A stretch of 64,000 nt of DNA. It comes from the human T2T-CHM13v2.0 reference genome, Homo sapiens. The translations under genes and the position numbers were made by a program. The DNA is taken from NCBI RefSeq assembly GCF_009914755.1, contig NC_060947.1, one strand, 5' to 3'. Every line of letters begins with the position of its first letter. Position 1 is the stretch's first letter. Below are positions 30,147 through 44,578 of this stretch, piece by piece. The notes beneath the pieces are model-generated. The model saw only the letters and a list, made by a program, of their open reading frames with translations. It did not search any database and had not been told where the DNA came from.

Positions 30147-31696
30147 TGAGAGGTGACAGCATGCTGGCAGCCCTCACAGCCCTTGCTCACTCTCGGCGCC
30201 TCCTCTGCCTGGGCTCCCACTTTGGCAGCACTTGAGGAGCCCTTCAGCCCACTATTGCACTGTGGGAGCCCCTTCCTGGGCTGGCGGAGGCTCCCTCAGC
30301 TTGCGGGGAGGTGTGGAGGGAGAGGCGCAGGCGGGAACCGGGGCTGCGCTCGGTGCTTGCGGGCCAGCACGACTTCCGGGTGGGTGTGGGCTGGGCAGGC
30401 CCGCACTCAGAGCGGCCGGCTGGCCCCCCCTGCCCGGGGCAGTGAGGGGCTTAGCACCTGGGCCAGCAGCTGCTGTGCTCAATTTCTTGCCGGGCCTTAG
30501 CTGCCTTCCCGCGGGGCAGGGCTCGGGACCAGCAGCCCACCATGCCTGAGCCTCCCCCTCGCTCCGTGGGCTCCTGTGCTGCCCGAGCCTCCTGGACGAG
30601 CGCCACTCCCTGCTCCACGGCACCCAGTCCCATCGACCACCCAAGGGCTGAGGAATGCCGGCGCACGGCGCGGGACTGGCAGGCAGCTCCACCTGTGGCC
30701 CTGGTGCCCGATCCACTGGGTGAAGCCAGCTGGGCTCCTGAGTCTGGTGGGGACTTGGAGAACCTTTATGTCTAGCTAAGGGATTGTAAATACACCAATC
30801 GGCACTCTGTATCTAGCTCAAGGTTTGTAAACACACCAATCAGCACCCTGTGTCTAGCTCAGGGTTTGTGAATGCACCAATGGACACTCTGTATCTAGCT
30901 GCTCTGGTGGGGACTTGGAGAACTTTTATGTCTAGCTCAGGGATTGTAAATATACCAATTGGCACTCTGTATCTAGCTCAAGGTTTGTAAACACACCAAT
31001 CAGCACCCTGTGTCTAGCTCAGGTTTTGTGAATGCACCAGTTGACACTCTGTATCTAGCTACTCTGGTGGGGACTTGGAGAACCTTTGTGTCCACACTCT
31101 GTATCTAGCTAATCTAGTGGGGAGGTGGAGAACCTTTGTGTCTAGCTCAGGGATTGCAAAGGCACCAATCAGCACCCTGTCAAAACAGACCACTGGGCTC
31201 TCTGTAAAATGGACCAATTAGCAGGATGTGGGTGGGGCCAGATAAGAGAATAAAAGCAGGCTGCTCCAGCCAGCAGTGGCAACCCACTCAGGTCCCCTTT
31301 CGCACTGTGGAAGCTTTGTTCTTTTGCTCTTTGTAATAAATCTTGCTGCTGCTCATCCTTTGGGTCCACACTGCCTTTATGAGCTGTAACACTCACCGCG
31401 AACTCACCGCGAAGGTCTGCAGCTTCACTCCTAAAGCCAGCGAGACCACAAACCCACCAGGAGGAACGAACAACTCCAGACGCGCCACCTTAAGAGCTGT
31501 AACACTCACCGCGAAGGTCCGCAGCTTCACTCCTGAGCCGGCGAGACCACGAACCCCACCAGAAGGAAGAAACTCCGAACATCAGAAGGAACAAACTCTG
31601 GACACGCCGCCCTTAAGAACTGTAACACTCACCGTGAGGGTCCACGGCTTCATTCTTGAAGTGAGTGAGACCAAGAACCCACCAATTCCGGACCCA
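30147..31696 (+). mobile_element. Solo LTR12C (ERV9 LTR)
   Basis: Starts tgagaggtgacagc, CpG-rich U3, tandem CCAAT/GATA enhancer repeats 30760-31190, 'gataagagaataaaagcagg' promoter, ends aattccggaccca; 4-bp TSD ctgg (30143-30146 / 31697-31700). Confidence 0.96.
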
Positions 31697-31944
31697 CTGG
31701 CAGATCCTGGACTCCACCCTGTGCTGAGCAGGTGTCTATCCCTCTGCTGACCTGACAACCTGCCTCAGACCAAGGGCCCTACCTCTCTGAGATGTGGGAG
31801 GCACAAAGTGAAGGGGCACTACACGGACAGCCCTGCATGGCATGCCAAAGGCTGACAGATGGAGCAGATTTCAGGGTGCCTGCTCTCTCTGGGTGTCCTC
31901 CAGGTATTCAGATTTACTCATGACAATGCCTGCCCCTTTCCCTT

Positions 31945-41572: not shown

Positions 41573-42874
41573 GTATGTACTCAGCATTTCAGAAGTCCTT
41601 GGTGTGTGTCTGGGGGGGGACCAGGGAGTGGGGGGGGGGGCGGATAGAAGTCTAGGAAGGTATGAGTCCCCGAGGGCCCCAATTTAGAAGCTTGTGTGGG
41701 AAAGTGAGGGCTGAGGAAATTCTGGGACCTTCTAAGGGAAGGGCATGCCGTAACTCTGGTGTTCTGCTGGCCTGCACCGGGACTTTTCTCGCAGTGCACG
41801 CTGCCATTTGAGGTAGAACCAGACACGGCAGGCAACCTCTCAGAGATCCCGTTCCCTCCTCTGCAAAATGGGGATCAAGACAGATTCTTCCCAGGCCCGG
41901 GAGGGTTTGATGGAAAATCCACATCTCCCACCCAAACCTGGGATTCATCCTAGGTCCCTGTTGGCCTCTCTGCCTCCCCCATATCCTTGCTGCCATCACC
42001 CGAGTCTTGCCTGTCTTGCCTTGCTAACACTCTATTCCCCTCCACCTGCTTGCTGAGGCAGACACTTCCAAAACGATCTCTGCAGAGGGTGCCTTCCTGG
42101 CAAGGCTGTGGGCTCCATGGCACGGAAGCCCAGAGCATTGCCCTTCGGAAAGCCAGTGGGTTTGGGGGCAGGGCCTCACTGCAGCCCAGCAGCCCGGGCT
42201 GTGCTTGCTGTTTGTGCCTCTGCCCCCTACCCCGCACCCGGGAGCAGGGAGGGCTTGCACCGAGCTGACACTCCAGTAGCCTACAGAGAGGAGTAGTGGG
42301 ACTGGGAAAGTGGCTTTAAGGTGGCTCCATGAGTTCAGGCCCCCTCCTGGCCAGGACCCGTGCATGACTACCGCCCTCACGGATTCCAGAGGGTGACAGA
42401 AATCTTGTTCTTGGGTGGCACTGTCATCCATGAGTTTATCCTGGCTGGAGAAGATTAGCGGAAGACACCGTAGTCTGCGCACCACAGATATTTTGAGACT
42501 CACTGGAGCAGTAGTTCTCAAACTTGGGCATCCAGCAGAATCCCAAAAGGGCCAGGAAAAGGGGACCGCTGGAGCCCACCCTAGCCCGACTCAGTTTCTG
42601 GAGGTCTGGGCTGGGGCCCGAGAATGGCATCCCTAACTAGGCCCCGTGGACGCTGTCCCTGCCGGTCCGGGAACCCCACTCCAAGCACCACAGAGCTAGC
42701 ATTTGCACTTCTTCCCCATTTTGGGTACTCAAGCCCTGTTCAGGCTTTGTGACTCAGGAGTCTGGATAAAGTATGTTATGACATTGTAGGAGTGAAACTT
42801 CTTGTTACGGAAAGAAAGTTAACAGGAAGGTCAGTTGAGCCTCGTGTGTGAAATAAAAAATTCTTATTTTTCAG

Positions 42875-44578
42875 GGTGGTTTGGTATCCGCAAAGATTTC
42901 TGTCAGTTTCTGCTTGAAATCTTCCCATTTCTACGAGAATATGGAAACATTTCCTATGATCTCCATCACGAAGATAATGAAGAAACCGAAGAGACCCCAG
43001 TTCCGGAGCCCCCTAAAATCGCACCCATGTTTCGAAAGAAGGCCAGGGTGGTCATTACCCAGAGCCCTGGGAAGTATGTGCTCCCACCTCCCAAATTAAA
43101 TATCGAAATGCCAGATTAGATGCCACTTCCGGGGACAGAGCTTAAGTGGACTGGGACGCACTCTCTCCGCCTTCCTCTGCCCCCTCGTTCACCCCGCAGA
43201 CCAGAACCAGTACTGGAGCTGGGTCTCCAGGTACGTCCATCTCATGCCTTGTTTGCATCCAGCGCCTATCAGCCACTCACCACGACGGGACGCGGAAGTG
43301 GCAGGTGACGGGGGTGTGTGCCAGCAGATGCGGATGCCAGGAAGAGTGTGAGAACAGGGGTGGGATTACCGTCTGTCTGGGAGGGGCTCCAGGTACCCCT
43401 CTTCCCCGTCAGACCCACTGGGAGATGGCTGCTTGCCAGGCCCCCAGAAGGAACATCTGTCTATACGGTGCTGAAATCCCAATCAAAAGTATTGTTTAGA
43501 AATGTATTTCTCCACAGGGCTGACCTCCTGCAGCTCGCTGAGCACTCCCAGGTCCTCAGCACTCCCAGGTCGTGGCTGGGGCAGTCAGTAGGAACTGTAA
43601 CTATGTCTCTGATGCACCACGTGTTTAGACACAGCACAGTCCTTTTTTCTGTTCCTACTGTGGAAGTAGTTTCTCTTTGGGCATGCTGACAGCAGTTTTT
43701 CATAGCCTCACGGATGAGCCCTTTCTACGGGAGTGACTCCATGCTTGTATACAGAGTATTTATACAAATGTTTTAGCATCTTCATATGCGGTGTTAACCC
43801 CTAGTTCTGTACAGCATATTCTGTTCAAGTATTTTTTTACAAGCTTGTGCTGTAGGCACATGCCTTCTGCTGCAGAAGTGGACGCCCGTGGCACACTCCC
43901 CCCCCCCCGTGGGGTGCCACGCCTTCATGGGACATTGCCACTTCTGCCCTGGAACTCGTGCAGGTACGTAGTAGCTGCTACTGCCAGAACGGCAACACCA
44001 AGCAAGAGATGGTCCATGCTTTTCTGACGTTCTCAGAATAGTGGCTAGCTTCAAACCTGACAAGCGCTGCTTGAAGCCGGAACACTAGAGAATGTTGCTG
44101 AGAGCAGAAACGGCCACGCGGGTCACGACTATGCGTGGGAAAGTCTCAAGCTTCCCTCCTGCCAGCAACAAGAAGGCTTTGGAGTAGGCATGATGTTTTC
44201 ACGTGTGCGTGCCGTTTCTCCAAGCACTGCAGGTTCCACCGTGTGTCAGAGGCTGCAAGTTTAACATCCTCCTGCCTGAAAACAAATAGGTCCTTTGCTG
44301 AAAAGAGGGTAAAAAAAGAGCTTTGATCTTCTCAGCCAGGAGAAGAGGGTGGTGTTTTCACGCGGGCAACTGCTCGCCGGCCTACATGGGGTTAATTCAA
44401 GTCTGCTGCGAGCACGACTCCGCCCTTGGCACTGGCCTCCAGCAAGCCCTGTTCTCTTTGGGGTACAGGGGAACGGGATGGTTTAGACTTTCCTGCTCAG
44501 TGTGTAAAAAATGTAGCTAAAGCCACTATTTTTGCTCTCCTTAAGCTGTTCAATAAACCGGTTCCTCATTTTACACGT
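42875..44578 (+). pseudogene. TMEM185A-like (TMEM185AP1): TMEM185A partial duplicate, terminal exon (CDS to TAG 43119 + 3'UTR)
   Basis: tttcAG|(W)[36 protein letters not shown]...[14 protein letters not shown] 44552-44557. Confidence 0.9.
44552..44557 (+). terminator. Polyadenylation signal of TMEM185A-like unit
   Basis: AATAAA followed by GT/T-rich downstream sequence. Confidence 0.65.

What the first reader, a model, noticed from the sequence alone, without database searches (positions are those of the whole stretch)
31240..44578. Predicted chimeric gene: LTR12C promoter -> MAGEA11 exon 3 -> TMEM185A exons 5-7, all in frame
Seen: the + strand solo LTR12C has a near-consensus donor GAA|GTGAGT at 31660/31661. 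An LTR ATG (31379) runs open to it in phase 0 (94 codons). About 870 bp downstream is an intact phase 0-0 MAGEA11-type exon (32529-32624) with its own ATG (32538, A at -3). The orphan TMEM185A exons follow on the same strand (0-0, 0-1, 1-stop) with intact splice sites and a polyA signal. Splicing would give a 307-aa protein (LTR ATG) or a 210-aa protein (MFSEDDF...[10 protein letters not shown]...EMPD) with TMEM185A's C-terminal membrane segments and tail. Skipping the MAGE exon is also in frame. Established: LTR12 elements act as testis and HDAC/DNMT-inhibitor-inducible promoters of chimeric transcripts. Inference: this promoterless 'pseudogene' may be expressed as a new cancer-testis fusion; phase agreement could also be chance.
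Basis: partly seen in the sequence, partly recalled or inferred. Interest (0 to 1): 0.8.

Follow-up and report, generated by a model that had tools for sequence, protein, structure and literature searches.

The report
Latent LTR12C–MAGE–TMEM185A chimeric transcription unit
A retroviral promoter, a stray MAGEA11-type exon and the duplicated tail of TMEM185A lie in one reading frame on the same strand, and the promoter can be switched on experimentally, but no RNA joining them has been seen and the exons seem intact only because they are copy-corrected from their working parent genes.

Summary
Observation: confirmed to the base. The ATG, donor, MAGE exon, three TMEM185A exons, phases, 307/210/275-aa products, junction peptides and polyA signals are all as written.

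What it is: an accidental mosaic.
- A full-length solo LTR12C (30147-31696) has a perfect 4-bp target-site duplication.
- Its GTGAGT donor is rare, 14 versus 1,751 exact 20-mers genome-wide.
- The ATG-linked open frame depends on an 11-nt duplication unique in this genome.
- The MAGE exon lies in a ~540-nt stretch about 98.5% identical to MAGEA11, against 80-86% in the flanks.
- The TMEM185A exons lie in an inverted-repeat arm starting at 38869, 99.57% identical to the parent.
- Exon intactness is therefore passive, not evidence of selection.

Expression:
- The LTR is listed in Ohtani 2024, Table S1. Reads are 0-2 at baseline and 112-476 per replicate after CRISPR activation in four cell lines.
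- It is H3K4me3- and H3K27ac-positive there, the minority class linked to long read-through transcripts.
- 5-aza-CdR alone barely induces it.
- No junction, CAGE, testis or protein evidence could be reached.

Verdict: a plausible, untested latent LTR12C chimeric transcript, a new member of a known kind. A selected function is unlikely.

The parts
30143..30146 (+). Left copy of the 4-bp target-site duplication CTGG
   Evidence: the MAGEA11 locus (L012) holds the uninterrupted empty site ...GACTACTGGCAGATCC...; in the window the LTR is flanked by CTGG on both sides.
30147..31696 (+). Full-length solo LTR12C (TG...CA)
   Evidence: 88-90% identity to many genomic copies; labelled LTR12C (1,551 bp) in Ohtani 2024 Table S1; both flanks are MAGE-type sequence, with no ERV9 internal part.
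30743..31092 (+). U3 tandem repeats (period 41, about 7 copies) carrying CCAAT boxes
   Evidence: Tandem Repeats Finder. CCAAT at 30795, 30836, 30877, 30955, 30996, 31165, 31214. The review PMC11853044 describes 5-17 repeats of about 41 nt.
31269..31280 (+). GCCAGCAGTGGC start-site motif of active LTR12C copies; AATAAA-type TATA-like box at 31249
   Evidence: The motif is named in PMC11853044. It is intact here and in 22 of 29 other copies.
31335..31340 (+). AATAAA inside the LTR's R region, about 55-65 nt after the presumed start site
   Evidence: It is present in 27 of 29 other copies.
31379..31660 (+). LTR open frame, ATG to donor, 94 codons, phase 0
   Evidence: It is the only ATG in 31240-31700. 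The frame is open back to 31340.
31392..31413 (+). Tandem 11-nt duplication (two copies) that moves the ATG into the long U5 open frame
   Evidence: 27 of 29 other copies lack 11 nt here (one lacks 10, one lacks 12); the 24-mer across it occurs once in the genome at up to 2 mismatches; in 27 of 29 copies the ATG frame stops at codon 15.
31661..31666 (+). 5' splice donor GTGAGT (G at 31663 where the family has C)
   Evidence: 27 of 29 copies have GAAGTCAGT and 0 of 29 have GTGAGT; 14 versus 1,751 exact 20-mers genome-wide; best donor in R-U5 by a crude matrix (4.18 bits against at most 0.18).
31697..31700 (+). Right copy of the target-site duplication CTGG
31943..33145 (+). Inverted block of a decayed MAGEA11-like paralogue that carries the exon
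   Evidence: 91% identity to C23:147953943-147955123 in reverse orientation. The neighbouring blocks (31696-31931, 33143-35234, 29817-30045) match the MAGEA11 locus in direct orientation.
32382..32919 (+). High-identity stretch to MAGEA11 (8 differences in about 540 nt), wider than the exon
   Evidence: 0-3 differences per 50 nt inside, 4-24 per 50 nt outside.
32529..32624 (+). MAGEA11-type coding exon, 96 nt, phase 0-0, own ATG at 32538
   Evidence: one synonymous difference (32579 G/A) from the MAGEA11 exon, with identical splice sites and identical 32 residues.
38869..46100 (+). Inner end of the large Xq28 inverted-repeat arm (measured part); the arm runs on at least to about 57175
   Evidence: 99.57% over 7,240 nt to C23:147860780-147868381 in reverse orientation; homology ends at 38869 in an AAAT-rich stretch; mirrored paired hits further out.
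40647..40823 (+). TMEM185A-type exon (59 codons)
   Evidence: PF10269 positions 164-223, E 1.2e-9; one synonymous difference from the parent (40751, GCA versus GCG).
41449..41572 (+). TMEM185A-type exon (phase 0-1)
   Evidence: PF10269 positions 224-252, E 0.053; one replacement difference (41491, Ser here, Cys in the parent).
42875..44573 (+). Last TMEM185A-type exon: coding to the stop at 43118-43120, then 3' UTR with AATAAA at 44552
   Evidence: The annotated pseudogene end at 44573 is from the hub table; the coding part is identical to the parent.

Best explanation
The locus is an accidental mosaic that forms a latent, retrovirus-promoted transcription unit.

How it arose:
1. A decayed MAGEA11-like paralogue suffered an internal inversion. 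This turned one coding exon onto the + strand.
2. A + strand LTR12C inserted just upstream of that exon.
3. About 6 kb downstream lies the inner edge of the large Xq28 inverted repeat. That edge cuts TMEM185A in an intron, so the arm copy here holds only the gene's last three coding exons and its polyA site.

Why the exons are intact: both coding modules exchange sequence with their working parents. The MAGE exon sits in a conversion-like stretch, and the TMEM185A exons are homogenised arm to arm.

How it would work:
- The LTR is silent at baseline but promoter-competent.
- When it fires, its rare strong donor and the parent-grade splice sites downstream make LTR-MAGE-TMEM185A, or LTR-TMEM185A, spliced RNAs the expected products.
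- They would end at the TMEM185A polyA site and escape nonsense-mediated decay.
- A selected function is unlikely.

Shown: the anatomy, the origin of each piece, the rarity of the LTR features, and the inducibility and promoter chromatin of the LTR.
Inferred: the splice path, translation, and any testis or tumour expression.
For: - Anatomy and frames.
- Solo LTR with perfect target-site duplication, and an empty site preserved in MAGEA11.
- Start-site motif and U3 repeats intact.
- Donor rare in the family: 0 of 29 sampled copies; 14 versus 1,751 exact 20-mers. It is the only good donor in R-U5 by a crude matrix.
- The ATG-linked frame is unique to this copy.
- LTR inducible in four cell lines: Ohtani 2024 Table S1. 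Baseline replicate reads range from 0 to 2; activated reads are 339, 337, 328 (HEK293T), 168, 194, 170 (A2780), 434, 476, 371 (MCF7) and 115, 112, 172 (HCT116). These are uniquely mapped reads.
- MAGE exon and its splice sites are identical to the parent's apart from one synonymous base.
- All TMEM185A-type splice sites are identical to the parent's.
- No CpG-island-type promoter lies between the LTR and exon 5.
- A published HLA ligand from drug-treated patients (TPSLRTVTL) resembles this copy's TPPLRTVTL. The resemblance suggests the long U5 reading frame can be translated; no call checked which frame or locus encodes it.
Against: - No junction read, CAGE tag or peptide for this locus was found or could be searched.
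- 5-aza-CdR alone gave 5, 2, 7 reads against 2, 2, 0 in HEK293T.
- The dCas9-binding column is blank for this LTR.
- HSFX1, MAGEA9, MAGEA11 and TMEM185A do not appear in that paper's tables.
- They also do not appear in the readable supplements of Goyal 2023, 8 of 10 listed files. The de novo assembly itself could not be read.
- RefSeq RS_2025_08 has no transcript model from this LTR (hub table).
- By a crude matrix, 17 AG sites between the LTR and exon 5 score above the exon-5 acceptor, and the MAGE acceptor ranks 75th of 644.
- 20 AATAAA/ATTAAA hexamers lie on the + strand between 35570 and 39853.
- The review states that LTRs usually contain no splice sites.
Confidence: 0.5

Rival explanations
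1. The LTR can fire, but its transcripts never reach TMEM185AP1. They end at the LTR's own AATAAA or at one of the many polyA hexamers downstream, or they splice into cryptic or Alu-derived exons. The in-frame arrangement is then irrelevant.
For: -: 20 polyA hexamers lie between 35570 and 39853. Stronger-scoring acceptors lie at 36110, 36888, 34815 and 37296, and there are extra donors at 32852 and 32029.
- The MAGE acceptor scores poorly on the same matrix.
- no downstream gene name appears in the searched tables.
- Hub table: no RefSeq model.
Against: - The MAGE exon and the three TMEM185A exons are recognised in their parent genes with identical splice signals.
- The LTR falls in the H3K4me3-positive class, which is associated with long read-through transcripts.
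- All 20 polyA hexamers would be intronic once the 32624 donor is used.
Confidence: 0.33
2. The juxtaposition is inert in the body. The LTR stays methylated and silent in all normal and tumour tissues. Reads assigned to TMEM185AP1 in expression studies are mis-assigned TMEM185A reads.
For: - Baseline counts are 0-2 reads in four cell lines.
- The pseudogene's exons differ from the parent at only a handful of bases, so short reads are easily mis-assigned.
- TMEM185AP1 appears only in gene lists in 3 of 3 papers that name it.
Against: - LTR12C copies as a class show basal testis expression and drug induction.
- The surrounding genes are MAGE-type and HSFX genes, recalled as expressed in germ cells and hypomethylated tumours; this was not tested here.
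Confidence: 0.15
3. It is a selected new gene. The rare donor and the unique frame-linking duplication were fixed because the 307-aa or 210-aa membrane protein is useful, for example in the germ line.
For: - Two rare LTR changes both favour the long reading frame.
- The MAGE exon differs from its parent only by a synonymous base.
Against: - The high-identity stretch is about five times wider than the exon.
- Coding divergence from TMEM185A (2 of 547 nt, one a replacement) equals the arm-wide 0.43%.
- The product would hold only the last third of the PF10269 domain, positions 164-252 of 252, and no MAGE homology domain.
- My rough estimate for both LTR changes in one copy is about 1e-4. With thousands of copies, that is an expected 0.2-0.5 loci by chance.
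Confidence: 0.03

Closest known systems
LTR12C-initiated chimeric transcripts induced by DNMT and HDAC inhibitors (TINATs / TINPATs; Goyal 2023, PMC10593957, passages read; Brocks 2017 recalled only, not held)
   Same: A + strand LTR12C with an intact start-site motif lies upstream of spliceable exons. It is silent at baseline and inducible. The long U5 frame resembles a published HLA ligand.
   Different: - Here the downstream exons belong to two pseudogene fragments, not to a working gene.
- The first-exon donor lies inside the LTR and is a rare variant.
- No junction has been observed.
LTR12C as an alternative promoter of host genes after CRISPR activation, e.g. CXCL11 (Ohtani 2024, PMC11317136; sections 18-21 and Table S1 read)
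   Same: This LTR is in their Table S1 and belongs to the H3K4me3 plus H3K27ac co-marked class that they link to downstream gene activation.
   Different: They report 21 coding genes near co-marked LTRs. None of the genes near this LTR is named, and pseudogenes were not assessed.
TMEM185A / TMEM185AP1 inverted gene-pseudogene pair (PMC12632684; table passage read)
   Same: It is the same pair. The arms are about 170 kb apart in inverted orientation, and an inversion with breakpoints in both copies is recorded. I measured 99.57% arm identity.
   Different: That work treats the pair as an inversion substrate, not as part of a transcription unit.
Gene conversion between arms of large sex-chromosome inverted repeats (recalled general knowledge)
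   Same: Near-identity of the arms, with coding and non-coding divergence equal.
   Different: Here the homogenised copy is a promoterless gene fragment. Conversion therefore keeps an unused piece 'in repair'.

Membership tests
Solo LTR12C (ERV9 long terminal repeat) | TG...CA ends with a short target-site duplication and no internal ERV9 sequence | tested here: met
   CTGG on both sides, with the empty site preserved in the MAGEA11 locus; both flanks are MAGE-type sequence.
Solo LTR12C (ERV9 long terminal repeat) | U3 with 5-17 tandem repeats of about 41 nt carrying CCAAT boxes, and the GCCAGCAGTGGC start-site motif | tested here: met
   period 41, 7.2 copies; seven CCAAT boxes in U3; the motif is intact at 31269-31280.
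LTR12C-initiated chimeric transcript | Transcription starts in the LTR | tested here: inconclusive
   Published uniquely mapped reads on the LTR rise from 0-2 to 112-476 after activation, with H3K4me3 present. The start site itself was not mapped and no natural tissue was seen.
LTR12C-initiated chimeric transcript | An observed splice junction from the LTR exon into downstream exons | not testable with these tools
   No RNA reads are available here. The Goyal 2023 assembly files were unreadable.
LTR12C-initiated chimeric transcript | Induction by DNMT or HDAC inhibitors, or basal testis expression | tested here: inconclusive
   5-aza-CdR alone in HEK293T gave 2, 2, 0 to 5, 2, 7 reads. No HDAC-inhibitor or testis data were reached.
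TMEM185 protein family (Pfam PF10269) | The full 252-position transmembrane domain | tested here: not met
   only positions 164-252 are encoded here; the exons for positions 1-116 lie outside the arm, in TMEM185A.
MAGE protein family | The MAGE homology domain | tested here: not met
   the 32-residue exon hits no Pfam family. Per and the hub table, the only last-exon-like fragment (29759-30411) lies on the other strand.
Large X-linked inverted repeat (palindrome-type) arm | Long inverted copies at 99% identity or more on the same chromosome | tested here: met
   99.57% over 7,240 nt in inverted orientation. The inner edges are at window 38869 and C23:147868015, which I calculate to be about 165 kb apart.

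The most novel reading that the evidence does not exclude
This is a young chimeric cancer-testis gene assembled from a retroviral promoter and two pseudogene fragments. Its coding modules are kept free of damage by gene conversion from their working parents. Its LTR acquired a rare strong donor and a unique 11-nt duplication that links the first AUG to the whole 307-aa frame. When the LTR is derepressed, it yields a membrane protein, or at least HLA-presented junction peptides, absent from normal somatic tissue.
Probability: 0.07. Interest if true: 0.7.

Novelty: new member of a known kind. Interest (0 to 1): 0.4.

Why it matters
If the junctions exist, the locus would add a tumour- or testis-restricted transcript with two unique junction peptides to the catalogue of LTR12C-driven antigens.

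It would also show how a promoterless gene fragment can stay translatable because it is copy-corrected from a working parent.

There is a practical point as well. All three modules are near-copies of other loci, so short-read pipelines would mis-assign or discard its reads, or call a 'MAGEA11-TMEM185A fusion'. This could explain why it is not annotated.

If the junctions do not exist, the case is an ordinary coincidence of frames in a rearranged, repeat-rich region.

Tried and rejected
- Brocks 2017 (PMC6005702) is not held.
- Goyal 2023 supplements:
  - Gene names and hg19 coordinates were searched. The only hits were decimals in a proteomics sheet.
  - The de novo assemblies could not be read. 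One zip gave about 50 characters and several files were 'too large'. That paper therefore says nothing either way about this locus.
- PMC12587700: the one supplementary file held as text (4,398 characters) had no hit.
- Literature searches gave no paper linking the pieces:
  - LTR12C + MAGEA11: 0 papers.
  - LTR12C with HSFX1, HSFX2, MAGEA9 or TMEM185A: none of the 18 listed papers holds LTR12C.
  - MAGEA11 + TMEM185A: 8 papers, mostly copy-number studies by title, none about a fusion by title.
  - TMEM185AP1: 3 papers, all gene lists or an inversion table.
- Selection on the exons is not supported. Identity is equally high in the surrounding non-coding sequence.
- The second overlapping donor at 31665 scores poorly.
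- I did not attempt a real splice-site model. The matrix uses recalled textbook frequencies and serves for ranking only.
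Full report
**1. The observation**

A script on the window reproduced every coordinate in the finding.
- ATG 31379 is the only ATG in 31240-31700. Its frame is open for 94 codons to GAA|GTGAGT at 31660/31661.
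- A 96-nt phase 0-0 exon lies at 32529-32624, with its own ATG at 32538 (A at -3).
- Three further exons lie at 40647-40823, 41449-41572 and 42875 to the stop at 43118-43120, in phases 0-0, 0-1 and 1-stop.
- AATAAA lies at 31335 and 44552.
- The exon numbers ('exon 3', 'exons 5-7') could not be checked.

**2. The LTR**

The element is a complete solo LTR12C at 30147-31696.
- It starts TG and ends CA, and is flanked by a perfect CTGG duplication. The uninterrupted empty site survives in the paralogous MAGEA11 locus.
- It has about seven 41-nt U3 repeats with seven CCAAT boxes.
- It carries the GCCAGCAGTGGC motif at 31269-31280. A 2025 review names this motif as the usual start site of active LTR12C copies (PMC11853044, passages read).

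- At the donor, 27 of 29 other copies read GAAGTCAGT, one reads GAAGTCAGC and one GAAGACAGT. None has GTGAGT.
- Genome-wide, the exact 20-mer with G occurs 14 times and the one with C 1,751 times.
- With a crude matrix built from recalled frequencies, 31661 is the only good donor in R-U5: 4.18 bits against at most 0.18 for the rest.
- In 0 of 29 other copies is the ATG frame open to this site. 27 of them stop at codon 15.
- Here a tandem 11-nt duplication (31392-31413) shifts the ATG into the long U5 frame. 27 of 29 copies lack these 11 nt, and the 24-mer across the duplication is unique in the genome at up to 2 mismatches.
- That long U5 frame is itself common, open for 92 codons in 11 of 29 copies.
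- An HLA ligand reported from decitabine-treated patients (TPSLRTVTL; PMC10593957, passage read) closely resembles this copy's TPPLRTVTL.

My rough estimate is that both rare changes would coincide in about 1e-4 of copies. With thousands of copies, one such locus is not surprising.

**3. The MAGE exon**

Window 31943-33145 is a 91% copy of part of the MAGEA11 gene in inverted orientation. The blocks around it (29817-30045, 30045-30146 with 31696-31931, and 33143-35234) match the same locus in direct orientation. MAGEA9 in this window is collinear with MAGEA11, so the pseudogene is the rearranged copy. An internal inversion turned the exon onto the + strand, behind the LTR.

The exon differs from the MAGEA11 exon by one synonymous base and has identical splice sites. 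It sits in a stretch (32382-32919) with 8 differences in about 540 nt, while the rest of the block differs at roughly 14-20% of columns. A high-identity stretch five times wider than the exon points to sequence exchange with MAGEA11 rather than selection on the exon.

**4. The TMEM185A exons**

The window's own genome is held, and it supplied the other copy.
- From 38869 onward the window is 99.57% identical, in inverted orientation, to C23:147860780-147868381. That is 19 mismatches and 6 gaps over 7,240 nt.
- To the left of 38869 the similarity is lost.
- This is the inner edge of the large inverted repeat that also holds HSFX1/HSFX2 and MAGEA9/9B. The gene names come from the hub table and from recall.
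- The parent TMEM185A straddles the edge of the other arm. The exons for Pfam PF10269 positions 1-116 lie outside that arm. The arm holds positions 164-252 plus the tail.
- All splice sites equal the parent's. The coding part differs at 2 of 547 nt, one synonymous (40751) and one Ser-for-Cys (41491).
- That is no different from the arm-wide 0.43%, so an intact frame is what recent duplication or homogenisation predicts.

**5. Can the LTR fire?**

Ohtani et al. 2024 (PMC11317136; sections 18-21 and Table S1 read) list 'chrX 148840056-148841607 LTR12C' (hg19) among the upregulated elements.

I take this row to be the window's LTR for three reasons.
- Its 1,551-bp length fits 30145-31695.
- Its end is within 1 bp of the position I predicted from a recalled HSFX1 coordinate.
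- An independent conversion agrees within about 10 bp. It used the hg38 breakpoints of the TMEM185A/TMEM185AP1 inversion, the mirror symmetry of the arms and a recalled hg19-hg38 offset.

Reads per replicate (uniquely mapped, 75-nt single-end):

| Cell line and condition | Control | Activated or treated |
|---|---|---|
| HEK293T, PBS vs 5-aza-CdR | 2, 2, 0 | 5, 2, 7 |
| HEK293T, VP64, non-targeting vs LTR12C guide | 1, 2, 1 | 339, 337, 328 |
| HEK293T, p300, non-targeting vs LTR12C guide | 2, 1, 1 | 6, 2, 4 |
| A2780, VP64 | 0, 0, 1 | 168, 194, 170 |
| MCF7, VP64 | 2, 0, 0 | 434, 476, 371 |
| HCT116, VP64 | 0, 0, 0 | 115, 112, 172 |

The row is H3K4me3-positive and H3K27ac-positive, and its dCas9-binding column is blank.

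**6. What is missing**

- No junction, CAGE, testis or peptide evidence could be reached.
- Brocks 2017 is not held.
- The Goyal 2023 assemblies are unreadable here.
- Ohtani's tables name none of the neighbouring genes.
- No paper in the library links LTR12C with MAGEA11, HSFX1/2, MAGEA9 or TMEM185A.
- TMEM185AP1 occurs in three papers only, as a list entry or an inversion partner.
- RefSeq has no transcript model here (hub table).

The splice path is also not forced.
- The crude matrix ranks the MAGE acceptor 75th and the exon-5 acceptor 18th of 644 AG sites.
- It finds extra donors at 32852 and 32029.
- 20 polyA hexamers lie between 35570 and 39853.

Against these points, the four exons are recognised in their parent genes with the same signals. 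No CpG-island-type promoter lies between the LTR and exon 5.

**7. Reading**

I rate the outcomes as follows.

| Outcome | Probability |
|---|---|
| Accidental mosaic forming a latent LTR12C-driven unit; chimeric RNAs are the expected products when the LTR is active | about 0.5 |
| LTR transcripts end or splice elsewhere | about 0.33 |
| LTR silent in vivo | about 0.15 |
| Selected new gene | about 0.03 |

The product would hold the last third of the TMEM185 domain, with three to four hydrophobic segments by Kyte-Doolittle windows, and no MAGE homology domain.

**8. Comparison and novelty**

The locus works like the known LTR12C-initiated chimeric transcripts. Membership in that class needs an observed junction, which is untested.

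Three things are unusual.
- The target exons are pseudogene fragments kept translatable by exchange with their parents.
- The donor lies inside the LTR as a rare variant.
- All three modules are near-copies of other loci, which would hide the transcript from short-read pipelines.

If real, it is a new member of a known kind.

Noticed in passing
window 29759-35234 compared with L012/L010 (MAGEA11 locus) and window 54662-58710 (MAGEA9): The decayed MAGE paralogue is rearranged. Its last-exon fragment and two blocks keep the MAGEA11/MAGEA9 order and orientation. The 1.2-kb block with the coding exon is inverted and sits on the other side of the block that received the LTR. About 2.4 kb of the parent order (L012 231-2680, apart from the inverted block) is missing.
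   Followed up: partly
window 38860-38900: The inner edge of the inverted-repeat arm falls in an (AAAT)n / A-rich stretch. The two arms differ there by a 5-nt indel and two substitutions.
   Followed up: no
window 41491: The pseudogene copy encodes Ser where TMEM185A encodes Cys. This is the only amino-acid difference in the three shared exons and a handy marker for telling reads of the two copies apart.
   Followed up: no
window 32194-32438 and 35252-35475: An internal inverted repeat of about 78% identity within the MAGE-like region. Similar paired hits occur at other MAGE-A loci. It may have mediated the block inversion.
   Followed up: no
window 32529: The MAGE exon's first bases (CAG|GTGAGC) also score as a strong donor on the crude matrix, 6.9 bits and second best in the region.
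   Followed up: no
Ohtani 2024 Table S1 and section 19: The authors could not explain why only some LTR12C copies gain H3K4me3, and linked it to downstream ERV9 sequence. This solo LTR is co-marked and carries a rare strong 5' splice site. My untested idea is that a nearby donor is the distinguishing feature.
   Followed up: no
genome: 13 other LTR12-type copies listed: Thirteen further copies carry the same GTGAGT variant of the U5 site, for example on contigs C1, C2, C3, C4, C6, C9, C14 and C24. Whether they splice from it is unknown.
   Followed up: no
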